From a virus: 64,000 bases of DNA. Below the pieces are notes generated by a model. It had not been told where the DNA came from, did no database searches, and worked only from the letters and a program-made list of their open reading frames with translations. Both the position numbers and the translations under genes were made by a program. Of this stretch, positions 23,279 to 34,922 are shown in pieces. The stretch is taken from IMG/VR virus record IMGVR_UViG_3300048798_000032, positions 39,429 to 103,428 of that record. One strand, given 5' to 3'. Numbering within the stretch: the first letter of the stretch is position 1; the number at the start of each line of letters is the position of its first letter.

Positions 23279-23387
23279 CCATCTTGCCGGGCAGTACAGC
23301 AAGCAAGACGCTTACGGAGCACTACAGGAAGCGGCATGACGGTTAATTGCGTTGCCCGATCAGCCCCGAAGATGGAGAGTCCTGAAC

Positions 23388-25487
23388 ATGGAAATGCTGA
23401 CCAAGCACCTGATGAACTGGGCGTCGATCCTGGAGCCGAACACTCTGGAGCAGGCGCGGCGCACCTCCGAGATGCCGTTCATCCATCCTTGGGTGGCATT
23501 GATGCCAGACGCCCATCTCGGCAAGGGCTCCACGGTCGGCTCCGTCATCCCCACCCTCGGCGCGATCATGCCCGCGGCGGTCGGGGTCGACATCGGCTGC
23601 GTAGACGCTCAGAGCGAGTACCTGTCACCGTCTGGCTGGCGCAAGATCAGTGAGTACCGCGGCGGTCCCGTCATGCAGTACGAACCGCTCACCGGACTAG
23701 CCCGGTTCGTAGAGCCGTCGGCCTACATCGTGAAGGCGTGCGAGGAGTTCTACCAGCTTAAGACCAAATACGGCATCGACCAGATGCTGTCCGCCGATCA
23801 TCGCGTCCTCTGCTGGAAGATCACGGGCCGCGCTAGGTGCCGGGTCATGATGGTGATCCCCGCCGCTGATTTCGCGGCTGAGCACGCTCGACTGAGGCAG
23901 GGATTCAAGGCGGAGTTCAAGACTACGTTCACGCCGGACTTGGATACCAAAGTCGATCTGAGTGATGCGCAGATTCGGGTGCAGGTCATGGCAAACGCCG
24001 ACAGCACCTTGAATCACGGGGCAGCCGTCCTTCATCTCCAGAAGGAACGCAAGATCACGCGCGCCCGGCAACTCCTCGCTGATGCCGGTATCGCCTGGAC
24101 AGAAAACGCCAACCGGGACGGCACCGCGACCATCCGGTTCCACGCGCCGATCGCGGAGAAGTCCTACGAGCCATTCTGGGAAGCGTCGGCCGCGCAACTT
24201 GCGGTGATCGCGGAGGAATGCTTGCTCTGGGATGGCAATCTGGATGACCGCTGCTTCTACACCAGAACCCGCGCCGAAGCCGACTTCATCCAGTACGCGT
24301 TCACGGCCTGCGGCTACCGCGCCGTGCTCCGCTCGGATGACCACTACCGGGATGGACAGCCCGACTACCGCGTGTTTGCCAACACCAACACCATGATCAG
24401 CATGAGTGGTGTTCCCAAAACCGAGATCACCACAGAGCCAAGCCCCGACGGCTACGCCTACTGTTTCACCGTCCCGTCGGGCTTCTGGGTGATGCGCAGG
24501 GGTGGCAACGTGGCCATGACCGGCAACTGCGGTATGCATGCCGTTCAGACGAGCCTGACTGCGGCCGACGTCCGCAAGCAGGGCGACCTGGCCGCGCTCC
24601 GTGAGGCGATCGAGGGCGCGATACCGCTGTCGGCAGGCAAGTACAACGAATCCGTCTACGACCCCGAGACCGACGAGCGCATAGCGGAGCTGGAGCAGAA
24701 AGACGGTGCAGCGAGCGCGGAGCAGATAGCGCCGAACTGGCGGCTTCAGCTCGGTTCCCTCGGTTCGGGTAACCACTTCATCGAGGTCAGTCTTGACGAG
24801 CATGGATCTGTGTGGCTGTTCCTGCACTCGGGTTCCCGTGGCGTTGGCAACAAGCTTGCCGTACGGCACATCAAGATCGCCCAGCAGCAGGCGAAGAAGT
24901 GGTGGATCGGCCTGCCTGACCCGGACTTGGCCTACCTCGTGGAAGGCACCGATGAGTTCTGGGCTTACATTCGCGACCTGCGGTGGGCACAGCATTTCGC
25001 TCTGCTGAACCGGCAGGAGATGATGCACCGCGTCATGCTCTGCGTGGATGCCTGGTACGGGCACCCGATCACCGGTCTCCAGGTAGTGCAGTGTCACCAC
25101 AACTACACCGAGCGCGAGAAGCATTTCGGCAAGGATGTCTGGCTCAGCCGTAAGGGCGCGATCGACGCGAGTGACGGCAAGCTCGGCCTCATCCCCGGCT
25201 CGATGGGCACGCGCTCCTATGTGGTCCGGGGGAAGGGCAACCGCCAGTCGCTCAACTCCTCGCCACACGGTGCCGGGCGCCAGCATTCACGTTCGGCCGC
25301 CCGCAGGACGTTCACCCGTGCCGAGCTGGACGCCGCGATGGAAGGTATCGAGTGGGGCCGCTCAGATGCGTTCCTGGACGAGATTCCCGGGGCCTACAAG
25401 GACGTTGACGTGGTGATGGCCGACGCCGCAGACCTCGTTGAGCCAATCCACACGCTGCGGCAGATCGTAAACGTGAAGGGCGATTGA
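23388..25487 (+). CDS. rtcB: RtcB RNA ligase containing an intein
   Basis: MPDAHLGKG, AVGVDIG/CG, LGSLGSGNHF, LHSGSRG, CHHNY, SRKGA, IPGSMG, HGAGR, DEIPGAYKD. Confidence 0.95.
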   Translation: MEMLTKHLMNWASILEPNTLEQARRTSEMPFIHPWVALMPDAHLGKGSTVGSVIPTLGAIMPAAVGVDIGCVDAQSEYLSPSGWRKISEYRGGPVMQYEPLTGLARFVEPSAYIVKACEEFYQLKTKYGIDQMLSADHRVLCWKITGRARCRVMMVIPAADFAAEHARLRQGFKAEFKTTFTPDLDTKVDLSDAQIRVQVMANADSTLNHGAAVLHLQKERKITRARQLLADAGIAWTENANRDGTATIRFHAPIAEKSYEPFWEASAAQLAVIAEECLLWDGNLDDRCFYTRTRAEADFIQYAFTACGYRAVLRSDDHYRDGQPDYRVFANTNTMISMSGVPKTEITTEPSPDGYAYCFTVPSGFWVMRRGGNVAMTGNCGMHAVQTSLTAADVRKQGDLAALREAIEGAIPLSAGKYNESVYDPETDERIAELEQKDGAASAEQIAPNWRLQLGSLGSGNHFIEVSLDEHGSVWLFLHSGSRGVGNKLAVRHIKIAQQQAKKWWIGLPDPDLAYLVEGTDEFWAYIRDLRWAQHFALLNRQEMMHRVMLCVDAWYGHPITGLQVVQCHHNYTEREKHFGKDVWLSRKGAIDASDGKLGLIPGSMGTRSYVVRGKGNRQSLNSSPHGAGRQHSRSAARRTFTRAELDAAMEGIEWGRSDAFLDEIPGAYKDVDVVMADAADLVEPIHTLRQIVNVKGD
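23598..24527 (+). mobile_element. intein (310 aa) with probable degenerate LAGLIDADG domain
   Basis: starts CVDAQSEYL, block B SADHRV, ends YCFTVPSGFWVMRRGGNVAMTGN before the extein Cys. Confidence 0.9.
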
Positions 25488-25599: not shown

Positions 25600-25673
25600 T
25601 GGGGTGTGGGGAAGTTTGGTATCCCGCGTGATTTGGGATCACGAGATCGCCGGTTCGACTCCGGTCACCCCGA
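25600..25673 (+). tRNA. tRNA-Pro(TGG), CCA not encoded
   Basis: TGGGGTG/CACCCCG acceptor stem, CGTGA-TTTGGGA-TCACG anticodon arm, GCCGG-TTCGACT-CCGGT T arm. Confidence 0.9.
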
Positions 25674-25717
25674 CGCATCAGCCGCTCGCCGCTGAGATTG
25701 TTATCCTGAAACCACAA

Positions 25718-25790
25718 TGCCGGGTCGGCTAATCAGGCAGGCCACGTGATTCTGGGTCACGGCGTTGGGGTTCGAATCCCTGCCCGGCAG
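25718..25790 (+). tRNA. tRNA-Gln(CTG), CCA not encoded
   Basis: TGCCGGG/CCCGGCA acceptor stem, CGTGA-TTCTGGG-TCACG anticodon arm, TTCGAAT T loop. Confidence 0.88.
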
Positions 25791-25791
25791 C

Positions 25792-25939: not shown

Positions 25940-26929
25940 TCATCCCTCAGACCTCGCGCCGTAGCGAGTGGCCAGCACGTGCGCAGGATGCCTATCCAGG
26001 TTGTGCCGGGCCCGGTCGTAGCGGCGCGTTGTCCGCGGATCAGCATGGCCCATCGCGTCCTGGAGATCTCGCAGGTTGCCCCCAGCGTCCAGGTAGTCGG
26101 TGGCGAACGTATGCCGCAGCGAGTGGGGGGATAGCTGCCCAGCGGACGGAATATTGGCATTTCGGGCAAGCCGCTGGACGAGCTGGCGAATGTAGGCGCG
26201 GTCAAGACGGCCACCGTTGCGAGTAGCAAAAAGCGGGCCACGGGAAGGATCCCCACGTGCGGCCAGCATCGCGTCGATGACTTCGCCCAGCGCGGCGGGG
26301 AGAGGGATGCGCCTTGTGCGGCCGCCCTTCTGCCGGACGGTGAGCACCCGGTAGCCGCGGTCGCGGCCGAGGTCTTCAACGTTTGCCCCGATGGCGGAAC
26401 CGCAGCGGATGCCACCGTAAAGCAGGAGCCGGATGAGCGCGGAGGATCGCAGCCCGTCATCGTCGGCCGCGCGGCAGAGACGATCAGCCTCGGCGGTGCT
26501 CAGCCCGATCGTGGGGGAGTAGTCGGGATCAAGGCTGGGACGCCCGTCCGTATCGGCCGGATTGGTCTGGACGAGCGGCTGCGCGTCATCCTTGGTGTTG
26601 CGGTACAGGTACTTGTACCAAGAGGAGATCGCTGCGACGCGGCGGCCGATGCTTGATTCGGCGGCCGGGTGGCCATCGCCGTCAGGGCCGTATTCGCGCT
26701 GCCAGGCAACCCAGGCGTCTACATGCATCATCCGGGCACTGAGCGGACTGACATCACAGCGCTCACACCAGGCCAGCCACCGGGCAAGGTCTTTCCGGTA
26801 GGCGTCGGTGGTGGCTTTCGAGCGGCGCGCGAGCCATGCCGCAGTCAGCCGCGACAGCCGGGAAGCGTGCTCGGGGCTGACTGAAAGCCAGTATCCGTCA
26901 GGTGCTGAAAGGGTAAGATCGGCGGTCAT
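25940..26929 (-). CDS. XerC/D-like tyrosine recombinase (resolvase)
   Basis: GIRCG, QKGG, PHSLRHTFAT, MGHADPRTTRRY. Confidence 0.92.
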   Translation of the reverse strand: MTADLTLSAPDGYWLSVSPEHASRLSRLTAAWLARRSKATTDAYRKDLARWLAWCERCDVSPLSARMMHVDAWVAWQREYGPDGDGHPAAESSIGRRVAAISSWYKYLYRNTKDDAQPLVQTNPADTDGRPSLDPDYSPTIGLSTAEADRLCRAADDDGLRSSALIRLLLYGGIRCGSAIGANVEDLGRDRGYRVLTVRQKGGRTRRIPLPAALGEVIDAMLAARGDPSRGPLFATRNGGRLDRAYIRQLVQRLARNANIPSAGQLSPHSLRHTFATDYLDAGGNLRDLQDAMGHADPRTTRRYDRARHNLDRHPAHVLATRYGARSEG

Positions 26930-26931
26930 AG

Positions 26932-26959
26932 GACCAACATAACCTGTGTTATGGAGTAC
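26932..26959. other. dif/res-like recombination site
   Basis: GACCAACATAA-CCTGTG-TTATGGAGTAC, 11-6-11 layout with CATAA/TTATG core. Confidence 0.6.
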
Positions 26960-27149
26960 CGGCCGAAGGCACGCCGAGAGGGGTTTGGGGTGCCCCGTCC
27001 GCACGTTCCATGACTGCCGCTACCGCATCAGCGACCGAACGCAGAGCTTCCGCCCGTGACTCACCCTGGCCAAAGCATCCGGGGAAGTACGGGCAGCCAG
27101 CAACCCATCCGTCGTCTTGATCATCTTTCCGCAGGGTGAATACGATCAT
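26949..27149 (-). CDS. HicB-like antitoxin domain protein
   Basis: GWVAGCPYFPGCFGQGESRAEALRSVADA. Confidence 0.8.
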   Translation of the reverse strand: MIVFTLRKDDQDDGWVAGCPYFPGCFGQGESRAEALRSVADAVAAVMERADGAPQTPLGVPSAGTP

Positions 27150-27480: not shown

Positions 27481-28011
27481 ATGACGAATGAGACACGGCA
27501 GCGTGAGCCGATACCCCCCGCGAAGCTGCGCGAGATGTACGGCGACGACCCCGAGCGCATCCTCGGCCGGCGCCTGCGGGCATTGCGGGAGGAGGCGGGC
27601 ATGACGCAAACGCAACTGGCCGATGCGATGACCCGCCAGGGCTTCCCCATGCACCAGACCATGATCGGCAAGGTGGAGGCGAACCAGCGGCCCGTCCGTG
27701 TCAACGAGGCCGCCGCGCTCGCTGGCATTCTCGGTTTCGCGCTGCCCGACCTGCTGGCCGACCCAGACCTGAACGCCGAGACATCCGCGCTGCGGGATGA
27801 ACTGCGGCAGGCGACCGCGCGGCGGCTGGACGCCGAGGCGCGATACGCGCAACTGAAAGCCGCCCTGGCCGAAGTGACCGTCAGCCTGTCGGCGGCCACC
27901 GAGGAACGCAACCGCGCCGACGAAGCAGAACGGGAAGCACGCCGCCTGTACCGGCTCGCGCGCCGCCGCTCCGCAGGCCACTCCCCCGCAGAGGACGAGG
28001 CTGATGGCTAG
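27481..28011 (+). CDS. XRE-family immunity repressor with coiled-coil tail
   Basis: LRALREEAGMTQTQLA..QTMIGKVEANQR; divergent from xis, upstream of int. Confidence 0.8.
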   Translation: MTNETRQREPIPPAKLREMYGDDPERILGRRLRALREEAGMTQTQLADAMTRQGFPMHQTMIGKVEANQRPVRVNEAAALAGILGFALPDLLADPDLNAETSALRDELRQATARRLDAEARYAQLKAALAEVTVSLSAATEERNRADEAEREARRLYRLARRRSAGHSPAEDEADG

Positions 28012-29206
28012 CATCGCCAAGCGCCCCAATGGCCGCTGGCGCGCCCGCTACCGGGACGCTGCGGGCAAGGAGCACGCCCGGCACTTTGACCGCAAGACGG
28101 ATGCCCAGAAGTGGCTGGACGCCATCACGGCCGATCTGGTCAAGGGGACCTATGTGGACCCGAAGACGGCCCGGATCACCGTGGCCCGCTGGTGCGACAC
28201 GTGGCTGGACGGGTACGGCACGCAGCGCAAATCCACCGTCAGGCAGGCCCGCGTGCATGTCCAGCGCATCAAGGCGGCATTCGGCCCGCAGCCCTTGTCC
28301 TCGGTACGGGCTTCCCAGGTGAAGTCGTGGACGTCCAGCCTCGTTGCCGAGGGCCTCGCCCCGTCCTACATCTATGCCCTGCACACCCGGCTGGCGCAGA
28401 TCATGAACGACGCCGTGATCGACGGCATCATCCCCCGCTCCCCCTGCTCGAGAAAGACCTCGCCGGGGCAAGGGGATCAGCGGCCTTACGTGGCCACCAC
28501 GGAGCAGGTGTTCGCCCTGCACGACGCGATGCCGGAACGGCTGCGCGCCGCGATCCTGCTTGGCGCGTTCGCTGGCCTGCGGTGCGCTGAGGCGTGCGGG
28601 CTGCGGGTACCGGACGTGGATTTCATGCGCGGGGTCATCAGCCCGGCCGTCCAGTTCCCGGCCGAGCCGCTCAAGAGCGACGTTTCCCGCACGCCCATCC
28701 CCATCGCACCATCGGTCACGCTGGCCCTGTCTGAGCAGGTGCGGCTGTTTCCCGGCGCAACCGTGCTTACCGGGGCGGACGGTGGCCAGCTCAGCACCTG
28801 GGCACTGGAGCGCGCTATCCGGACCTGCCGGGCCAGGGTGTACGCCTGTTCTGAATGTGAGACCGTCCAGGCCCGGCGCGGGCGCAAGTTCCGCTGCTCA
28901 TCCTGCGGGTCAGCGAACGGAACCCCTTCCCTGCCGCCAGGGTTCCGTTACCACGACCTGCGGCACTACTTCGCCAGCCTGCTCATCGCTGCCCGCGAGG
29001 ACGTGAAGAAGGTGCAGGCGAGGATGCGGCATGCTCTGGCCACGACGACACTCAACACCTACGGCCACCTGTGGCCCGATAGCGATGAGACCAGCCGGGT
29101 AGCCGTGGAAGCCGTCTTCGAGGGGCGCCGCCGGGGTCCGGGCGGACCTTCTGAGGACAGCAGTGATCATCCGTTTACATCTCCCCAGGTCAGGAAGGCA
29201 AAATGA
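28004..29206 (+). CDS. int: tyrosine integrase
   Basis: arm-binding N-terminus (RWRARYRD), AGLRCAE, HDLRHYFAS, MRHA..TLNTYGHLW. Confidence 0.95.
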   Translation: MASIAKRPNGRWRARYRDAAGKEHARHFDRKTDAQKWLDAITADLVKGTYVDPKTARITVARWCDTWLDGYGTQRKSTVRQARVHVQRIKAAFGPQPLSSVRASQVKSWTSSLVAEGLAPSYIYALHTRLAQIMNDAVIDGIIPRSPCSRKTSPGQGDQRPYVATTEQVFALHDAMPERLRAAILLGAFAGLRCAEACGLRVPDVDFMRGVISPAVQFPAEPLKSDVSRTPIPIAPSVTLALSEQVRLFPGATVLTGADGGQLSTWALERAIRTCRARVYACSECETVQARRGRKFRCSSCGSANGTPSLPPGFRYHDLRHYFASLLIAAREDVKKVQARMRHALATTTLNTYGHLWPDSDETSRVAVEAVFEGRRRGPGGPSEDSSDHPFTSPQVRKAK

Positions 29207-29411: not shown

Positions 29412-30933
29412 ATGGGTCAAGAGCGCAGCAACGAGCAAGGGCCGGCCGGGCCGAGGTACACCCAATTCGGCGTGGCGTCCCGTATCAGTGCCGCTTGCGG
29501 AGCCCAGGTGCTCACCTGCGAGGACTGCGGCGTGCTCGTCACCAACGAGAAGGCGCACACCCGGTTCCATTCCATCCTGAGCGGTCACGCCTGGTCGCTC
29601 GCTGTGCTGAAGACGGCTCACATCGCTGATCACGTCCACGATCAGTACAACGTGGTGGAGCGCATCGACAGCAGGAAGTTCGACTCCTGGAGTGCCGACG
29701 CGCTGGCCGAAGTAATGGCCGGCCTTGAGACCGGGCCCGCTGACGAGCCAGAGCATGACGAGCGCTGCTGCATGAACGGCATCGCCCCCGGCAAAGGGCC
29801 GCATCCTGATTGCCCTGGTGTCCAGATTGGTCACGGTAATACCCAGACCAATGTATTCGGAGGGTAGTCATGCCCGAGGTTCCTGAAGCGCTGGATCCCG
29901 CGACCAGCAAAGGCATCCGCATAACGGCGACCGATCTGGACGCGGGCGACAGCGATAGCAAGGTCATCTGGAATGACTATGTTCTGACGTGCGCCGGCTC
30001 CTGCTACGTGGATCATGTTCAGGCGTACGCCAACGGCACGCACGTGATCACCGTCAAGGGGCGTCGCGGTGCCTGACTCCACTTCTCCCCTCGATGCTGG
30101 TCTTTCACCAGCCAGACGAGCCCGTCTCCGTACACAGGACGCCACCCGGATCGCTGCTGCGCTCAAGATGGCACAGCGGGAACTGGAAACCGCTGCCGCG
30201 CCGATGCGGCTATGGCGTGTCCAGCGGGTGGAAGCGGCCGAGGCCGCACCGGAATTCGGTGGCCACAAGGCGCGCGCTGACCGGCGCTGCACATCTGCCC
30301 GGCAGGGCGCAGAGGTCAAGGCGGTACTGAAAGCACTGGGAGGCTGATCATGAGTAGCCCCATGGATATCGACATCAAGCTTCCCATCACGGGCAACGGA
30401 TGGATTCAGGTCAAGGTCGCCGTACCTGACATTGAGGCGCTCAGCGGGTTCGATCGGCAGTTCTTCCTCTCGGTACTGGAGAAGATTGCCGCCTTCGCGC
30501 CCATCGCGCTCAATGATCCAGTTCACCCGTCCCATCCGGTCACGGTCAGGCAGGTTGACGTTCCCGAAGTCCTGCGCGGGGTCGTAGGTGGCCGGCCATG
30601 AACACCCACACCACCGATGTCTCCCGCCGCGCCCGTCTCCGCAAGCAGGACGCAGACCGGATAGCCGCATCATTCGATACGGCACGTAAAGCCATGGAGA
30701 CAGCCTCTGTCACCTGGGGCCTGTGGGCTGATGATGTGCGGGCATGCACCGAAGCACGGCTAGGCCGGTCCTATGAGCCACACGATCCCGCTGTCCTGGG
30801 TGACCCCGAGTACAGCGCGGCCCTGGATGTGAGAGGGCTGATCGGTGAGGTGATAGCCCGGCTGGAAGATGCGGCGGGGAAGTTTGCCGAGGTGGAGAAA
30901 AGCGCAGCAGCAAGGGGAGGTGGCCAGCCGTGA
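29412..30933 (+). other. five hypothetical ORFs (29412-29867, 29870-30076, 30069-30347, 30350-30601, 30598-30933)
   Basis: coupled ORFs with RBSs. Confidence 0.55.
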
Positions 30934-31005
30934 CAAGGTGCGACTCGCCAGACGTAAAGGACATGGCAGCAACGAGGAGCGTGGGGTACGCTCCGGATTA
31001 GCATC

Positions 31006-31075
31006 GTTGCCCGGTGCGCAGGCAGCGGATACTTCTGGTGATGAAAATACCGCAGCCGTCTTGATCTCGGGCAGC
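31006..31075 (+). ncRNA. Y-RNA-like unit 1 (short loop cargo)
   Basis: GTTGCCCG-GTGCGCAGG..TACTTC..TTGATCT-CGGGCAGC closing stem. Confidence 0.7.
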
Positions 31076-31093
31076 ACAACTAAAGATGATCAC

Positions 31094-31137
31094 ACTCCCG
31101 GTGCGCACGTCACCCACGCCGACTTGATCTCGGGGGT
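31094..31137 (+). ncRNA. Y-RNA-like unit 2 (minimal or internally deleted)
   Basis: ACTCCCG-GTGCGCA..CTTGATCT-CGGGGGT; lacks TACTTC and cargo. Confidence 0.55.
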
Positions 31138-31157
31138 TCACAACTGAAGATGTTCCA

Positions 31158-31273
31158 CCCCTGGTGCGCAGGATGACGGCTACTTCATGGTTCGAATCCA
31201 CGCGCAGGCTCCGAAAGGCTCGCCTGTGTCGCCCAACTGGCAGGGCTACTCCGTCGCCGCTTGATCTCAGGGG
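31158..31273 (+). ncRNA. Y RNA unit 3, YrlA-type permuted tRNA mimic
   Basis: T arm TGG-TTCGAAT-CCA, closed acceptor-like stem CGCAGGC/GCCTGTG, D arm GCCC-AACTGGCA-GGGC, inside the conserved stem. Confidence 0.85.
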
Positions 31274-31294
31274 CTCATAACTGAATACGTCGCA

Positions 31295-31415
31295 CCTCCC
31301 GGTGCGAAGGTGAACGGGTACTTCTTGCCAGGGCGCAAGTCCAAAGATCGGCCAGCTCAAGAAACTGGCACCCACCTTCGGGTGGTCACCCGGTCGCTGC
31401 CATGATCTCGGGAGG
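31295..31415 (+). ncRNA. Y-RNA-like unit 4 (three-hairpin cargo)
   Basis: CCTCCCG/CGGGAGG stem; GCAA tetraloop, GCCAG-CTCAAGAAA-CTGGC and C(TTCG)G hairpins. Confidence 0.75.
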
Positions 31416-31428
31416 AGCAACGTCATAG

Positions 31429-31543
31429 CGTGCCCGGTGCGCAGGCGAGGGTTACTTCCTGACTGTTAATCAGGGTCTGACGGTTCGATTCCGTCGCAGG
31501 GTGGCCCCGTCCCGTACCCCTCACCGACTTGATCTCGGGCACG
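31429..31543 (+). ncRNA. Y-RNA-like unit 5 with tRNA-Asn(GTT) anticodon arm and T arm
   Basis: CCTGA-CTGTTAA-TCAGG, 4-nt variable loop, GACGG-TTCGATT-CCGTC; CGTGCCCG/CGGGCACG stem. Confidence 0.8.
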
Positions 31544-31551
31544 ACTAAACG

Positions 31552-31581
31552 AAGCTCCTCCCGCATGCGAGAGGAGCTTTT
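31552..31581 (+). terminator. terminator-like hairpin that overlaps the Ro60 RBS
   Basis: AAGCTCCTC..GAGGAGCTT then TT, directly before GTG 31583. Confidence 0.6.
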
Positions 31582-31582
31582 C

Positions 31583-33160
31583 GTGTCCCGCTTCAATACC
31601 TCCACGGCGCGAGTGCAGCCGCGCAGCCCGGTCACGTCGGAGACTGCCCCGTCTGGCCTGACCCACGAGGGCGCGCCGGGTTACGCCCGCGAAGCCAAGT
31701 CGGAACTTTTCTTGCTCGCGGTCGCGCACATGGGCGACGGGTCGTTCTACGAGTCCGCACCCGAACGCGACCGGCGGTTCTGTGCCCTCGTCCACGGTGT
31801 CGCGATGAACGATCCCGAGTGGATCGGCCAGTTCATCCCGTGGCTCCGCAACGAGGCCAACATGCGCACGGTGTCGGTGGTCGCGGCGGCCGAGGCGGCA
31901 TGGGCACTCCTGACGGACGAGAAGCCGGGCGGCCGGCAAGTCATCGCGTCCGCACTCCAGCGCGCCGACGAGCCGGGCGAACTGCTCGCCTACTGGCACT
32001 CCCGTCACGGCCGGGTGGTGCCGAAGCCGGTCAAGCGCGGTCTCGCCGACGCGATTCAGCGGCTCTACACGGAGTACGTGCTGATGAAATATGACACGGC
32101 CAGCCACGGTTACCGGTTCGCCGACGTGATCGAGCTCGTCCACCCGGTCGCGGCCGAGGCGTGGCGGGGCGACCTGTTCAAGTACGCGATCGACCGGCGC
32201 CACAACCGTGACGGCGACGCTCCCGAGTCGCTGCGCATGGTGCGCGCGAACGCGGCCCTGCGCAGGATCGCCGCCAGCACCCCGGCAACTCTGCTGGACG
32301 CCGAGGCACTCAAGGCCGCGGGTATGACGTGGGAGGACGCACTGTTGCTCGCGGGTGGCAGTGTGAGCAAGCGGGACCTGTGGACGGCCATGATCCCGTC
32401 GATGGGCATCTTCGCCCTGGTGCGGAACCTGCGCAACTTCGATGAGGCAGGCGTCACCGACGACACGGCGGCCCAGGTCACGGCAAAGCTCACGGACGCC
32501 GAGGTCATTGCCAAGTCGCGGATGTTCCCGTTCCGGTTCCTCGCCGCCTACCGGGCCGCGCCGTCACTGAGGTGGTCGTGGCCGCTGGAGAAGGCGCTCA
32601 ACCTGTCCCTGGCCAACGTGCCCGCACTCAGGGGGCGCACGCTCATCCTGGTGGACCGCTCGGGTTCCATGTTCGACACCGTGTCCGCCAAGTCTGGGCT
32701 GAACCGCGCCGACACGGCGGCCCTGTTCGGGTCCGCGCTGACCCGGCGTAGCGACCACGCCGACCTCGTGGAGTTCGGCACCGGCAGCCAGATGGTCCTG
32801 TCCACCGACGCGGCCCACGCGTACGGTCACGCCGAGTCGGTGCTGAAGATGGTCAGCCGGTTCGGCAGCATGGGGGGCACCAACACCGCCGAGGCCGTGC
32901 GGCGCTGGTACAGCGGGCACGACCGGGTAGTCATCCTCACCGACGAGCAGGCGTGGGGCGGCTTCAGTGGCAGCAACCCGACCATGCAGGTTCCCTCGTC
33001 GGTGCCGGTCTACACCTGGAACCTTGCGGGCTACCAGTACGGCCACGGGCCCTCGGGTGGGCAGAACCGGCATACGTTCGGGGGGCTGGAAGACAGCGCG
33101 TTCAAGATGATTCCCGCACTTGAAGCCGCGCACGACGCGCACTGGCCGTGGGAGGACTGA
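31583..33160 (+). CDS. rsr: Ro60/TROVE-domain RNA-binding protein (Rsr) with vWA domain
   Basis: THEGAPGY..KSELFLLAV..FYES, KYD..DVIELVHP, MTWE, ALVRNLRN, SRMFPFRF, vWA DRSGSM, GGT, ILTDEQ. Confidence 0.93.
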   Translation: MSRFNTSTARVQPRSPVTSETAPSGLTHEGAPGYAREAKSELFLLAVAHMGDGSFYESAPERDRRFCALVHGVAMNDPEWIGQFIPWLRNEANMRTVSVVAAAEAAWALLTDEKPGGRQVIASALQRADEPGELLAYWHSRHGRVVPKPVKRGLADAIQRLYTEYVLMKYDTASHGYRFADVIELVHPVAAEAWRGDLFKYAIDRRHNRDGDAPESLRMVRANAALRRIAASTPATLLDAEALKAAGMTWEDALLLAGGSVSKRDLWTAMIPSMGIFALVRNLRNFDEAGVTDDTAAQVTAKLTDAEVIAKSRMFPFRFLAAYRAAPSLRWSWPLEKALNLSLANVPALRGRTLILVDRSGSMFDTVSAKSGLNRADTAALFGSALTRRSDHADLVEFGTGSQMVLSTDAAHAYGHAESVLKMVSRFGSMGGTNTAEAVRRWYSGHDRVVILTDEQAWGGFSGSNPTMQVPSSVPVYTWNLAGYQYGHGPSGGQNRHTFGGLEDSAFKMIPALEAAHDAHWPWED

Positions 33161-33172
33161 TTCCAGGCACAC

Positions 33173-33221
33173 AAAAAGACCGCCGCACCACTCACCCGAA
33201 GGCAAGCGGTGCGGCGGTCTT
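33173..33221 (-). terminator. intrinsic terminator between the convergent rsr and late operons
   Basis: 14-bp stem AAGACCGCCGCACC/GGTGCGGCGGTCTT with an A-run on the left side. Confidence 0.8.
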
Positions 33222-33236
33222 GAGCCCAGGATCAGG

Positions 33237-33760
33237 CTACCCGACCTTGGTGCCGAAGTACTTCTCGTACAGCGCCTGGAGTTCAGTGAACCCCTTCTCC
33301 GCATCTGACACGACTGCGGAAGCCTCAGTGCCCACTCCGGGGGCAACCAGCTTGAGCGCGCCGACGACAGAGCCGAGCACCTTCTCCAGGGCGGGAGCGT
33401 GCTCGACCGCGAACGCGTCGGCCTTGGCCAGGTCGGCCTTGACGTCTTCGATGCCACGGCCGAACAGGTCACGGAACTTCTGCTCGAACTCCTGCAAGTC
33501 CATGGTGAATCTCCTCTTCGCTGCTGCGGGTTTGATGTCCGTGTTCAGACTTTCGCTGGCCAGTGCCAGGTGCCTCCGTGATAGACGCGGCCCCCGCACA
33601 ACGGCGAGTCGGTTTCCCCGACATCGGCACCTGGATCGTACTGAATCTCAGGGTTGAAGAACTGGCCGGTGGGGTTGAGCACACAGAGGCCGACATATGG
33701 GACACCGTGCTCCGGGACTGGATCCATGTGGACGATCCGGCCTATCGATGGCTGCTGCAC
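33237..33760 (-). other. two small late hypothetical ORFs (33237-33503, 33545-33760)
   Basis: RBSs GAGGAG and GAGAGG; MDLQEFEQKF.., MQQPSIGRIVH.. Confidence 0.55.
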
Positions 33761-33965
33761 TCCGGTCCTCTCTCGTTGCTGCAGGTTTCAGGTATGGGAG
33801 AACAGGCGAACCCCGCAGCAAGGGCGGGAAGCCTGGCAGGTGGCCTGTTCAGAGACCGTGGGATGCGAGGTAGGCCACAACCTCAGAGATGTCCCGGTCC
33901 GCGCTCGCGGCCACCAGGCGCACCAGGCGCACCAGGGAGGCAAGTTCCGTCAGGGGTGGCCAGGA

Positions 33966-34922
33966 TCACGAACTGCTCCACCGGTTCAGCGACACGTTGA
34001 CGATCCCGCCATCCACGTTGTCAGTCCTCGTCACGTCCAGGGCGTGCAGGGCGACCATGCCAGCGGGCGGATCCCCGAGGTCCACCTGCCCGCTCACCTT
34101 GCATTCGAAGTCGTACAGGTTCACGTGACCGTTGTCCCAGTACGCCTTGACCTGGACGCTTGTCCCCTCATCGCCAGCGATTGTGAGGGTAGCGGCATTG
34201 TAGCCGCCGCTCTCCCCCGCTGCTGAGGCGTCAGCCCAGACGGGGAGAGGCCCGCTGCGCTGGCCTGATTCGGTGAGCTGAATGTTCACGTCGTCGTCCT
34301 CCTGGATGACGGGGGGCTTGGGAGGTGGGGGCGCGCTCCTGGGTGCGACCAGCGCGGCGAGTTCGCCCACGGTGCCGTGAAAGAGCGAGCAGTCGACGGG
34401 ATAGCCGATGCCCGGCACGTCATACGTCTGGCTGAACTGCCACAGGATGTGCGGCCCAGCGGGTTCCTGGTCGGAGTAGGCGGCGATCCAGTCCGGCGCC
34501 AGCCCATTCTCAGCCGCGAAGTCTTCCCCCGAGTACAGCCACGGCCGGCCGGCCGTGGTACGCGCCAGATGCGGGTAGGCGGCCAGGATGACATCGCGCC
34601 ACTCCTGCCAGCGAGCTGCGCAGTCCTCGCCTTCCTCGAGGTCGCAGATCGGGATCTCGCCATCCTGGAGATCACCGAGGAGATGGACGAGCGCCGCGGC
34701 TTGCACGGTCGCGCTCTGGCTGGTGACCAGATATTGGTAGAGACCTATGAACTGCATCCCGGCCGCGCGAAGTGCCGCGCACCGCTGGCCGTTGTACCAG
34801 GCACCGTCAATCGTGGTGCCAAACATGGCCCTGACGATGATGGCCTTTGACCAAGAAGCGTATTGCCGGTCGTTGATGTTCGGCTGCCAGGAGGAGCAAT
34901 CGGCGAGCAAGGTTTCAGTCAT
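33966..34922 (-). CDS. endolysin, GH25 muramidase
   Basis: DCSSWQ, GLYQY, ICDLEE, WIAAY, LWQF, VDCS; Pro linker followed by a C-terminal domain. Confidence 0.85.
   Translation of the reverse strand: MTETLLADCSSWQPNINDRQYASWSKAIIVRAMFGTTIDGAWYNGQRCAALRAAGMQFIGLYQYLVTSQSATVQAAALVHLLGDLQDGEIPICDLEEGEDCAARWQEWRDVILAAYPHLARTTAGRPWLYSGEDFAAENGLAPDWIAAYSDQEPAGPHILWQFSQTYDVPGIGYPVDCSLFHGTVGELAALVAPRSAPPPPKPPVIQEDDDVNIQLTESGQRSGPLPVWADASAAGESGGYNAATLTIAGDEGTSVQVKAYWDNGHVNLYDFECKVSGQVDLGDPPAGMVALHALDVTRTDNVDGGIVNVSLNRWSSS

What the first reader, a model, noticed from the sequence alone, without database searches (positions are those of the whole stretch)
31006..33160. Modular array of five Y-RNA-like scaffolds with different cargo domains upstream of Ro60
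Seen: five tandem units share CC(C/T)G-GTGCG(C/A)A at the 5' side and TGATCT-C(G/A)GG at the 3' side; four also share GG..TACTTC. Closing stems are unit-specific and compensatory (CCTG/CAGG in unit 3), and the first three linkers are related (CAYAACTRAA). The interiors differ: short loop, none, permuted tRNA, three hairpins, anticodon plus T arm. A TROVE gene follows directly. Known: bacterial and some phage Ro60 genes neighbour Y RNAs (YrlA/YrlB) that have a Ro-binding stem and an effector domain. Inference: a repeat-plus-variable-insert repertoire that turns one Ro60 into several RNPs or decoys. Five diversified copies is more than the one or two I know of.
Basis: partly seen in the sequence, partly recalled or inferred. 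Interest (0 to 1): 0.88.

Follow-up and report, generated by a model that had tools for sequence, protein, structure and literature searches.

The report
Five-gene Y-RNA array beside phage Ro60
A temperate actinomycete phage from peat carries five small RNA genes in a row, all with the same stem that the ring protein Ro60 is expected to grip but each with a different inner part, and such rows of up to eight are the rule in this lineage although the papers I found describe at most two per locus.

Summary
Five tandem units (31006-31543, + strand) share a bulged terminal helix (5' GGUGCG(C/A)A, 3' UGAUCUC(G/A)GG). Each has its own compensatory closing stem, and four share GG-N-UACUUC. They end 40 nt before a TROVE + vWA Ro60 gene (31583-33160).

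A covariance model built from relatives finds exactly these five in the 103-kb phage genome. In a sample of 151 actinomycete genomes it hits only genomes that have a TROVE gene (13 of 16 against 0 of 135), always directly upstream on the same strand.

The inner parts are:
- a YrlB-like hairpin;
- nothing;
- a YrlA-like permuted tRNA;
- a three-hairpin non-tRNA module;
- an anticodon arm plus T arm.

Close relatives carry the same scaffold with a different cargo, so the design is modular. RNA-library contigs from peat samples match units 1-3 exactly.

Five units is not exceptional. Across 45 loci I counted 1-8 units, mostly 2-3. These are unannotated or mis-annotated as tRNAs, and Rfam's YrlA model misses them.

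This scan has already noted similar handle-plus-cargo arrays beside Ro60-like genes on other DNA. I found no paper that describes them.

Ro60 binding, processing into separate RNAs and the function are all untested. My verdict is a real Y-RNA operon and a new variant of a known kind.

The parts
30999..31004 (+). TAGCAT, a possible -10 promoter element for the array (inferred only)
   Evidence: Read. TANNNT-like hexamers sit 8-15 nt before the first unit in several relatives. The sigma-70 consensus scan found no promoter, so this is weak.
31006..31075 (+). Unit 1: YrlB-like Y RNA, a long hairpin with a short pyrimidine-rich loop
   Evidence: R1 73.8 bits, R2 72.2 bits. 8-bp closing stem. An ortholog is the first unit in most related loci. 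RNA contig X2 is 100% identical over 31012-31316.
31076..31093 (+). Linker 1 with the ACAACU motif, a putative processing site
   Evidence: ACAACT-type motif in 36 of 77 linkers across loci. The processing role is inferred from M. smegmatis YrlA/YrlB being cut from one precursor (PMC4201824).
31094..31137 (+). Unit 2: minimal Y stem of 44 nt, with no UACUUC motif and no cargo
   Evidence: R2 36.4 bits, E 2.8e-6. 7-bp closing stem. Covered by RNA contigs. A similar mini unit occurs in L032.
31138..31156 (+). Linker 2 with the ACAACU motif
31157..31274 (+). Unit 3: YrlA-like Y RNA with a T-like arm (about 31186-31201), a closed acceptor-like stem (about 31202-31228) and a D-like arm (about 31230-31246)
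   Evidence: Full-length alignment to RF02553 at 20.5 bits, below the 69-bit cut-off. R2 65.1 bits. Cargo is 82% identical to L003 unit 2. RNA contig X3 covers 31107-31270 at depth 167.
31275..31294 (+). Linker 3 with the AUAACU motif
31295..31415 (+). Unit 4: Y scaffold carrying three hairpins (GCAA and UUCG tetraloops), a non-tRNA cargo
   Evidence: R2 63.0 bits. The cargo is conserved in L002 unit 2 (86%) and L007 unit 3 (81%). This is the only unit with CGAA in the 5' strand.
31416..31428 (+). Linker 4, with no ACAACU motif
31429..31543 (+). Unit 5: Y scaffold carrying an anticodon-like arm (31458-31474, triplet GTT at 31465-31467) and a T arm (31479-31495), with no D arm and no acceptor stem
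   Evidence: R2 74.4 bits. ARAGORN calls it tRNA-Asn, but Rfam tRNA gives 22.9 bits against a cut-off of 29. The consensus fold with L003 and L006 orthologs shows compensatory T-stem changes.
31552..31582 (+). 9-bp hairpin followed by UUUC; its 3' arm holds the GAGGAG ribosome-binding site of Ro60
   Evidence: Read. An equivalent hairpin lies before the Ro60 start in 10 relatives, with some two-sided changes. The terminator scan does not call it. A terminator or translation-damping role is inferred.
31583..33160 (+). Ro60 ortholog (TROVE + vWA), 525 aa, GTG start
   Evidence: PF05731 2.4e-14 and VWA_2 26.4 bits against a cut-off of 27. PHROG 850 4.3e-48. Thermus phage phiLo Ro60 structures 9KOP/9L5Y at 1.4e-30. 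The start was chosen by alignment with relatives' ATG-TCC starts.
33176..33221 (.). 20-bp GC-rich hairpin between Ro60 and the convergent gene; it ends the unit
   Evidence: Terminator-like site called on the minus strand. Whether it also works on the plus strand is inferred.

Best explanation
This is an operon of five Y RNA genes followed by the phage's Ro60 gene.

How it most likely works (inferred, except where marked):
1. The array is transcribed rightward from just upstream of 31006.
2. The transcript is cut in the A/U-rich ACAACU linkers into five RNAs of about 44-120 nt.
3. Each RNA is bound by the phage Ro60 ring through the shared bulged helix formed by its 5' and 3' ends.
4. The helix plus the UACUUC junction act as a constant handle. 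The interior is an exchangeable effector module.
5. So one Ro60 forms several particles: a YrlB-like one, a bare-stem one, a YrlA-like tRNA mimic, a non-tRNA three-hairpin one and a half-tRNA one. These are expected to bring Ro60 to different RNA- or tRNA-binding partners (PNPase, tRNA enzymes, RNA ligase) or to gate its cavity.
6. The hairpin that buries the Ro60 ribosome-binding site probably keeps the RNAs in excess over the protein.

Shown here: the conserved, covarying structure; the strict linkage to Ro60; the modular exchange of cargo; presence in RNA libraries.

Not shown: transcription start, processing, Ro60 binding and partner choice.
For: Structure
- The five units share the handle with unit-specific complementary stems.
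- 13 short units: 94% of cells paired, 12 of 18 pairs changed on both sides, 0 of 500 shuffles as good; slid controls give 34-52% paired.
- 43 units: 92% paired, 14 of 17 pairs changed on both sides.

Linkage to Ro60
- All 133 R2 matches in 51 sources are on the Ro60 strand and next to the gene.
- There are exactly five in this 103-kb genome.
- In 151 sampled genomes of one class, 13 of 16 with TROVE have matches against 0 of 135 without (p = 2.8e-16).
- In all 13, the array lies 783-936 nt from the TROVE domain match, which puts it just before the gene start.

Kinship with known Y RNAs
- Unit 3 aligns over all 114 positions of RF02553.
- ACUUC also follows the stem in the published M. smegmatis YrlA and YrlB probe sequences (PMC4201824).
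- The UA of this motif matches the conserved UA noted in YrlA (bioRxiv 10.1101/312249).
- In M. smegmatis two Y RNAs upstream of rsr are processed from one precursor.
- Thermus phage phiLo Ro60 binds two upstream Yrl RNAs (PMC12135203), and it is the closest solved relative of this protein.

Modularity
- The unit 4 scaffold is 93% identical to L002 unit 2 (cargo 86%) and to L003 unit 2 (cargo 47%).
- The L003 unit 2 cargo instead matches the window's unit 3 cargo at 82%.
- The unit 5 scaffold is 91% identical to L002 and L004 units that carry a full permuted tRNA.
- RNA contigs of relatives keep the scaffold but replace 102 nt with 84 other letters, and 63 nt with 88 other letters.

Expression
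- Peat RNA-library contigs are 100% identical over 31012-31316 and 31107-31270.
Against: - No unit reaches Rfam's YrlA threshold (20.5 against 69 bits), and none matches the published GNCGAAN0-1G motif exactly. Only unit 4 has CGAA.
- Single-sequence folding energies are not better than shuffles (z from +0.13 to -1.83).
- No consensus promoter was found.
- RNA evidence comes from assembled contigs. They show neither RNA ends nor strand, and their ends coincide with the repeated motifs, so discrete RNAs are not shown. DNA carry-over is not formally excluded.
- Unit 2 lacks UACUUC and any cargo, and could be a remnant.
- No partner of any cargo is known.
Confidence: 0.8

Rival explanations
1. 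The tRNA-derived cargos, above all unit 5's anticodon arm, are decoys or sponges. Held on Ro60, they would draw host tRNA-cutting defence enzymes such as anticodon nucleases or VapC-type toxins away from real tRNAs, while the phage RtcB ligase repairs the damage. This is a special case of the main reading, not an alternative to the RNAs being Y RNAs.
For: - Hairpins in the V position have 7-nt loops with an anticodon-loop signature: U at position 2 in 21 of 24, a purine at 6 in 24 of 24, A at 7 in 21 of 24. The middle triplet varies (GUU, GCU, GCA, CUU, UCC and others).
- A 95%-identical relative differs at 31466, the middle 'anticodon' base.
- The phage encodes RtcB at 23352-25487.
- In Streptomyces phage Kela, Y units, an RNA ligase gene and Ro60 lie in one row.
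- The Salmonella rsr-yrlBA-rtcBA operon responds to tRNA damage (PMC7790460, abstract).
Against: - No nuclease target is identified.
- The anticodon-loop signature can be inherited from the tRNA ancestry proposed for YrlA (the dimeric-tRNA model cited) without any present function.
- Units 1, 2 and 4 have no tRNA part.
- The same arrays sit in bacterial chromosomal loci, whether prophage or not is unknown.
Confidence: 0.2
2. The array is mainly a cis-acting leader of the Ro60 mRNA. Ro60 would bind the Y-like stems in its own 5' untranslated region and, together with the hairpin over the ribosome-binding site, set its own synthesis.
For: - The array ends 40 nt before the start codon on the same strand in nearly all loci.
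- A conserved hairpin buries the ribosome-binding site.
- An RNA contig spans units 1-3 and into unit 4 without a break.
Against: - Position is not fixed. In L018 six units lie downstream of Ro60. In L014 four units lie 1.2 kb upstream, separated by tRNA genes. Atuin has units on both sides. In Kela a ligase gene lies between.
- A leader would not need five different conserved cargos.
- Cargo modules are conserved across phages.
Confidence: 0.1
3. Only one or two units work. The others are decaying products of tandem duplication, with unit 2 an emptied copy.
For: - Unit 2 has no cargo and no UACUUC motif, and scores lowest.
- Unit number varies from 1 to 8 between relatives.
Against: - Every unit keeps an intact, unit-specific complementary closing stem.
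- The cargos of units 3, 4 and 5 are conserved in other phages at 72-86%.
- RNA contigs cover units 1-3, including unit 2.
Confidence: 0.1
4. The units are odd tRNA genes or tRNA-like cutting marks, unrelated to Ro60.
For: - ARAGORN calls unit 5 tRNA-Asn.
- GenBank annotates the equivalent units of Alone3 and VanLee as tRNA-Ser(gct) and tRNA-Arg(tct).
- The same phage uses mini-tRNA separators elsewhere, according to an earlier, unchecked note.
Against: - Unit 5 has no acceptor stem or D arm and is below Rfam's tRNA threshold.
- Units 1, 2 and 4 have no tRNA features.
- The handle occurs only with TROVE genes.
Confidence: 0.03

Closest known systems
YrlA and YrlB of Mycobacterium smegmatis and Salmonella Typhimurium (Chen et al. 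2014, PMC4201824; Rfam RF02553)
   Same: - Small RNAs encoded just upstream of the Ro60 (rsr) gene on the same strand.
- The terminal stem carries the Ro-binding site.
- One RNA has a permuted tRNA-like module (T arm, closed acceptor-like stem, D arm), like unit 3. [quoted passage not shown]
- The ACUUC junction is shared with the M. smegmatis RNAs.
- In M. smegmatis both RNAs are processed from one precursor.
   Different: - Two RNAs are described there; there are five here and up to eight in relatives.
- Both strands of the Ro helix are conserved here, whereas only the 5' strand is recognisable in those species.
- CGCA mostly replaces CGAA.
- The cargos include a bare stem, a non-tRNA three-hairpin module and an anticodon-plus-T-arm half tRNA.
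- Rfam's model scores only 20.5 bits here.
Thermus phage phiLo Ro60 with Yrl1 and Yrl2 (PMC12135203; PDB 9KOP, 9L5Y)
   Same: - A phage-encoded Ro60 with Y-like RNAs directly upstream.
- The protein is the best solved match to this one (1.4e-30).
- Binding of those RNAs to the phage Ro60, and complexes with host PNPase, were shown there.
   Different: - Two RNAs against five.
- Model R2 does not match the phiLo locus, so the handles differ.
- No tRNA-like or modular cargo was reported there.
Deinococcus radiodurans Yrn1/Yrn2 and the small RNAs a-d upstream of rsr (PMC4201824)
   Same: - Several small RNAs are clustered upstream of rsr.
- Both strands of the Ro helix are retained, as here.
- Yrn1 tethers Ro60 to PNPase.
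   Different: - Only two of the four RNAs are counted as Y RNAs.
- They are not a head-to-tail array of one scaffold with swapped inserts.
Vertebrate Y RNAs (two to four per species)
   Same: - Several paralogous Y RNAs share one Ro60-binding helix and differ in the loop that recruits other proteins.
- From memory, not tested: the human 5' GGUCCGA and 3' UUGACU helix strands resemble GGUGCGA and UUGAUCU here.
   Different: - They are separate Pol III genes, not a processed operon.
- They have no tRNA-like cargo.
- Rfam Y_RNA gave no match at E up to 10.
Handle-plus-cargo RNA arrays beside divergent Ro60-like (DUF2828/TROVE-like) genes noted earlier in this scan (for example e1-5790182, e1-5970872, e1-5795500)
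   Same: Tandem small RNAs with one constant handle and different tRNA-like pieces next to a Ro60-like gene in phages. Those follow-up agents also found no published description.
   Different: - Those are AI notes that I did not check.
- They mostly concern very divergent Ro60-like proteins and other handles.
- Here the protein is a clear TROVE Ro60 and the handle is close to the classical Y-RNA helix.

Membership tests
Y RNA (Ro60-associated small RNA; bacterial/phage YrlA-YrlB class) | Encoded within about 4 kb of a Ro60/TROVE gene on the same strand (criterion of Chen et al. 2014) | tested here: met
   The array ends 40 nt before the TROVE gene. The same holds in 45 loci. In a genome sample the family is found only with TROVE.
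Y RNA (Ro60-associated small RNA; bacterial/phage YrlA-YrlB class) | 5' and 3' ends pair into a long stem that holds a conserved bulged helix, the Ro60 binding site | tested here: met
   The conserved helix has covarying closing stems: 92-94% of cells paired and 12-14 pairs with two-sided changes.
Y RNA (Ro60-associated small RNA; bacterial/phage YrlA-YrlB class) | 5'-strand motif GNCGAAN0-1G (bacteria), CGAA (phiLo) or GGUCCGA (vertebrates) | tested here: inconclusive
   The units read GGUGCG(C/A)AGG. Only unit 4 has CGAA, and no unit matches GNCGAA exactly (U in place of the first G). It is a near match only.
Y RNA (Ro60-associated small RNA; bacterial/phage YrlA-YrlB class) | Physically bound by Ro60, with stability that depends on Ro60 | not testable with these tools
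   Needs pull-down or gel-shift assays.
Y RNA (Ro60-associated small RNA; bacterial/phage YrlA-YrlB class) | Accumulates as a discrete small RNA | tested here: inconclusive
   RNA-library contigs match at 100%, but contigs give no ends or strand, and they break at the repeated motifs.
Rfam RF02553 YrlA | Score at or above the family's gathering threshold (69 bits) | tested here: not met
   Unit 3 scores 20.5 bits with a full-length alignment. There was no YrlA match at threshold in 18 related loci, including Bxz1 and phiLo.
YrlA-type tRNA mimic | T arm, closed acceptor-like stem and D arm in permuted order inside the Y stem | tested here: met
   This holds for unit 3 only: the elements align to the model's T, AS and D helices and are conserved in L003 unit 2. 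Units 1, 2 and 4 lack them. Unit 5 has only the V-position hairpin and the T arm.
tRNA gene (ARAGORN's call for unit 5) | Cloverleaf with acceptor stem and D arm; Rfam tRNA score of 29 bits or more | tested here: not met
   22.9 bits, with no acceptor or D arm aligned.
Ro60 protein (TROVE ring + vWA domain) | TROVE domain followed by a vWA/MIDAS domain; similarity to solved Ro60 structures | tested here: met
   PF05731 at 53.8 bits. VWA_2 at 26.4 bits, just under its 27-bit cut-off. PHROG 850. phiLo Ro60 9KOP at 1.4e-30 and a chain named RNA-binding protein RO60 (9NEN) at 5.5e-4.

The most novel reading that the evidence does not exclude
The array is a display system. A constant Ro60-binding handle presents interchangeable pieces of tRNA (anticodon arm, half tRNA, permuted tRNA and, in relatives, a whole tRNA) and non-tRNA folds. 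Phages swap these cargos in an arms race with host enzymes that cut or modify tRNAs. On this reading the Ro60-Y RNA particles act as decoys or sensors for tRNA-targeting defence, working with the phage RNA ligase.
Probability: 0.2. Interest if true: 0.85.

Novelty: new variant of a known kind. Interest (0 to 1): 0.6.

Why it matters
Ro60 and Y RNAs are studied in animals, where Ro60 is a lupus autoantigen, and in a few bacteria. What the variable part of a Y RNA recruits is still largely open, and bacterial work rests on one or two RNAs per species.

These actinomycete phages and bacteria offer natural series of up to eight Y RNAs on one handle, with cargos exchanged between close relatives. 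This gives:
- a ready-made comparative panel for asking which module binds which partner;
- a covariance model that finds Y RNAs Rfam misses;
- a correction for tRNA genes mis-annotated upstream of Ro60 in deposited phage genomes;
- sequence support for the idea that YrlA arose from tRNA transcripts, because the V-position hairpin keeps an anticodon-loop signature.

If the cargos prove to be decoys for tRNA-targeting defences, this would be a new class of phage counter-defence.

Tried and rejected
- Rfam at gathering threshold found nothing in the array. The permissive search gave only sub-threshold YrlA and tRNA matches plus chance-level snoRNA/sRNA hits, which I disregard.
- blastn of the array against 50,697 phage records found no match. 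Relatives had to be found through the protein.
- Single-sequence folding was uninformative: z-scores from +0.13 to -1.83, and the minimum-energy fold of unit 5 mispairs the handle. Covariation was used instead.
- The sigma-70 promoter scan found none. I considered reading the TTGACA-like linker or TTGATC as a -35 element and dropped it, because no -10 follows at the right spacing.
- RNA contigs gave no cover on the flanking genes (29500-31002, 31671-34500). Contig ends at 31107 and 31270 fall on the repeated motifs, and those at 31017 and 31316 abut adapter sequence, so none is taken as an RNA end.
- Model R2 does not match Bxz1 or phiLo, so nothing can be said about array size there.
- A three-way alignment that included L008 unit 2 misaligned the cargo and was discarded.
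- The 2014 paper's supplementary tables are not held and the 2020 Annual Review is not held. I therefore could not check whether several hits per genome were tabulated there.
- Cargo 4 has no Rfam relative and its identity remains unknown.
- PHROG and Pfam found nothing for the six small ORFs upstream.
Full report
**1. What is there**

The window is bases 39429-103428 of a 103-kb uncultured virus record, about 95% complete. A peat metagenome holds the stretch in full and may be its source.

Between 31006 and 31543 on the + strand lie five head-to-tail units. Each begins with a unit-specific run of 4-8 bases followed by GGTGCG(C/A)A. Each ends with TGATCTC(G/A)GG followed by the complement of that run.

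- The 3' motif occurs five times here and once elsewhere in 64 kb, against 0.42 expected. No shuffle reached six.
- The 5' octamer is common in this G+C-rich DNA (10 found, 9.9 expected), but five copies fall within 430 nt.
- A script that required pairing across the two motifs recovered the five units with closing stems of 6-8 bp. Unit 3 shows the C-to-U / G-to-A double change.
- GG-N-TACTTC follows the second helix in units 1, 3, 4 and 5.
- Linkers 1-3 share ACAACT or ATAACT.

Forty bases after unit 5, a GTG at 31583 opens a 525-aa protein. It has a TROVE domain, a borderline vWA match and PHROG 850 'RNA-binding protein'. Its closest solved relative is the Ro60 of Thermus phage phiLo.

**2. 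The structure is real**

I aligned 13 short units from the window and from related viral contigs. Then I counted pairs for the fold closing stem / bulged helix / second helix / third helix.

| Alignment | Cells paired | Pairs changed on both sides | Control |
|---|---|---|---|
| 13 short units | 94% | 12 of 18 | 0 of 500 shuffles as good; slid partners 34-52% paired |
| 43 units fitted to the model | 92% | 14 of 17 | 0 of 500 shuffles as good; slid partners 38-52% paired |

Single-sequence energies are unremarkable, as expected for G+C-rich sequence.

**3. It belongs to Ro60**

Covariance model R1 (short units) finds all five window units at 33-74 bits. The iterated model R2 finds them at 36-74 bits. 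R2 finds nothing else in the 103-kb genome.

- Across 29 phage and viral sources and 22 bacterial loci fetched through the Ro60 protein, every match lies on the Ro60 strand beside the gene.
- In an even sample of 151 genomes of one bacterial class (that of genome G001, which holds locus L030 of Winogradskya consettensis), 16 have a TROVE gene and 13 of these have R2 matches. None of the 135 without TROVE has one (Fisher p = 2.8e-16).
- In all 13, the nearest unit is 783-936 nt from the TROVE domain match. That places the array directly before the gene start.

This is the criterion Chen et al. used to call Y RNAs, and it is met far more strictly here.

**4. Relation to known Y RNAs**

- Unit 3 aligns over all 114 positions of Rfam YrlA: T arm, closed acceptor-like stem, D arm. 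It scores only 20.5 bits against a threshold of 69.
- The ACUUC junction is also present in the published probe targets for M. smegmatis YrlA and YrlB. Its UA fits the conserved UA discussed for YrlA.
- The 5' strand GGUGCG(C/A)AGG is a near match, not an exact match, to GNCGAAN0-1G, CGAA and GGUCCGA.
[quoted passage not shown] The 2014 paper reports that for Deinococcus and animals but not for Salmonella or M. smegmatis.
- Rfam's YrlA model reaches threshold in none of 18 related loci.

**5. The cargos are modular**

Units 3, 4 and 5 have orthologous cargos in other viral contigs, at 82%, 86% and 72% identity. The T stem of unit 5's family shows compensatory changes, and the three hairpins of unit 4 are conserved.

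Scaffold and cargo do not always travel together:

- Unit 4's scaffold is 93% identical to L002 unit 2, which has the same cargo.
- It is equally 93% identical to L003 unit 2, whose cargo is instead the T / acceptor-like / D module of the window's unit 3.
- Unit 5's scaffold is 91% identical to the last units of L002 and L004, which carry a full V + T + acceptor-like + D module of 82 nt rather than 58 nt.
- Environmental RNA contigs from soil and wetland samples show the same pattern in closer relatives. The flanks match at 95% or more, while 102 nt of unit 4 are replaced by 84 other letters and 63 nt of unit 5 by 88 other letters.
- In L017 and L018 one scaffold encloses a complete tRNA that passes Rfam's tRNA threshold.

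Across relatives the cargo therefore runs from nothing, through a hairpin, a half tRNA, a permuted tRNA and a whole tRNA, to non-tRNA folds.

**6. Five is not unusual**

By R2, units per locus over 45 loci are as follows:

| Units per locus | Loci |
|---|---|
| 1 | 4 |
| 2 | 16 |
| 3 | 15 |
| 4 | 4 |
| 5 | 1 (this window) |
| 6 | 4 |
| 8 | 1 |

- The isolated Streptomyces phages BRock, pSt2308 and Alone3 and Gordonia phage VanLee have a diverged handle (CGAUGCGUAG ... UACUUC ... UUUUCUAG). By eye they carry 4, 5, 5 and 4 units.
- One sampled bacterial genome has five in tandem.
- None of these is annotated as a Y RNA. Two are annotated as tRNAs.
- The papers I could search describe at least two Y RNAs in each of three bacteria, and two in phage phiLo. 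I found none describing larger arrays. The 2020 review and the 2014 supplements were not available.
- Earlier notes of this scan report similar handle-plus-cargo arrays beside Ro60-like genes in many other phages. I did not check them.

**7. Expression**

Two peat metatranscriptome studies hold contigs 100% identical to 31012-31316 and to 31017-31107 plus 31107-31270. Soil and wetland RNA libraries hold relatives.

Contigs cannot give RNA ends or strand. Their breaks fall on the repeated motifs or on adapter sequence. So this shows presence in RNA libraries, which is consistent with abundant stable RNA, and nothing more.

**8. How it probably works**

By analogy with M. smegmatis, where YrlA and YrlB are cut from one precursor upstream of rsr, I read the array as one transcript. 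It would start near a TAGCAT hexamer at 30999-31004 and be cut in the ACAACU linkers.

Each RNA would bind Ro60 by the handle. The cargos would give one Ro60 several identities. A conserved hairpin at 31552-31582 holds the Ro60 ribosome-binding site in its 3' arm and is followed by UUUC. It probably ends most transcripts and damps Ro60 translation.

The phage also encodes RtcB, and Kela places an RNA ligase gene between its Y units and Ro60. This fits the known link between Ro60, Y RNAs and RNA repair (PMC7790460, abstract seen). Whether the tRNA-like cargos act as tethers, gates or decoys cannot be decided from sequence.

**9. Verdict**

The finding is real and correctly read as a Y-RNA array. 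It is one member of a widespread, unannotated and apparently undescribed expansion of the Ro60-Y RNA system in actinomycetes and their phages.

It is not exceptional for its copy number.

Noticed in passing
window 31458-31474; V-position hairpins of units in L003-L050: The hairpin between UACUUC and the T arm often has a 7-nt loop with an anticodon-loop signature: U at position 2 in 21 of 24, a purine at 6 in 24 of 24, A at 7 in 21 of 24. The middle triplet varies; CUGUUAA, CUGCAAA and CUGCUAA recur. This fits the proposal that YrlA arose from a dimeric tRNA transcript (cited in bioRxiv 10.1101/312249). A 95%-identical RNA contig differs at 31466, the middle base of the triplet.
   Followed up: partly
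L023 2274-2347 (Alone3 gene 36, tRNA-Ser gct); L024 2204-2275 (VanLee tRNA-Arg tct): These annotated tRNA genes directly upstream of Ro60 lie inside Y-scaffold units found by model R2 (L023 2269-2414, L024 2203-2340). They are probably Y-RNA cargo, not tRNAs. ARAGORN makes the same call for window unit 5.
   Followed up: partly
L018 5819-5959 and L017 2545-2689: Two Y scaffolds enclose a complete tRNA in normal order that passes Rfam's tRNA threshold (61.7 and 49.5 bits). The handle can therefore carry a whole tRNA.
   Followed up: partly
L027 1232-4165 (Streptomyces phage Kela): Three Y units, then an annotated RNA ligase gene, then Ro60, all on one strand. This looks like an RNA-repair style operon in an isolated phage.
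   Followed up: no
window 23352-25487: The RtcB RNA ligase ORF is 711 aa. Residues 34-83 match profile positions 1-50 and residues 380-710 match positions 49-426, so about 300 aa with no Pfam match are inserted. It may be an intein; I did not verify this.
   Followed up: partly
window 31552-31582 and the equivalent place in L002-L009, L019: A conserved hairpin plus U-run lies between the last Y unit and the Ro60 start, and its 3' arm contains the ribosome-binding site. It is a likely terminator or translation damper.
   Followed up: partly
linkers in the window (31076-31093, 31138-31156, 31275-31294) and in 45 loci: An ACAACU-type motif is present in 36 of 77 inter-unit linkers in both phage and bacterial loci. 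It is a candidate processing signal.
   Followed up: partly
L021-L023, L026, L014: In BRock-like Streptomyces phages, Arthrobacter phage Atuin and contig L014, the Ro60 gene and its Y array are embedded in large tRNA gene arrays. In L014, tRNA genes separate two sub-arrays.
   Followed up: no
window 25940-27004 (-) and 28004-29206 (+): Two tyrosine-integrase-family genes lie within 3 kb, next to tRNA-Pro and tRNA-Gln (25600-25791) and an HTH gene (27481-28011). The Ro60 module therefore sits in the lysogeny region of a temperate phage.
   Followed up: no
window 31107-31270 against 31017-31107 in RNA run X3: Two RNA contigs of one peat run differ about twelve-fold in depth (167 against 14). This hints that unit 3 is more abundant than unit 1. 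Contig depth is a poor measure, so this is only a lead.
   Followed up: no
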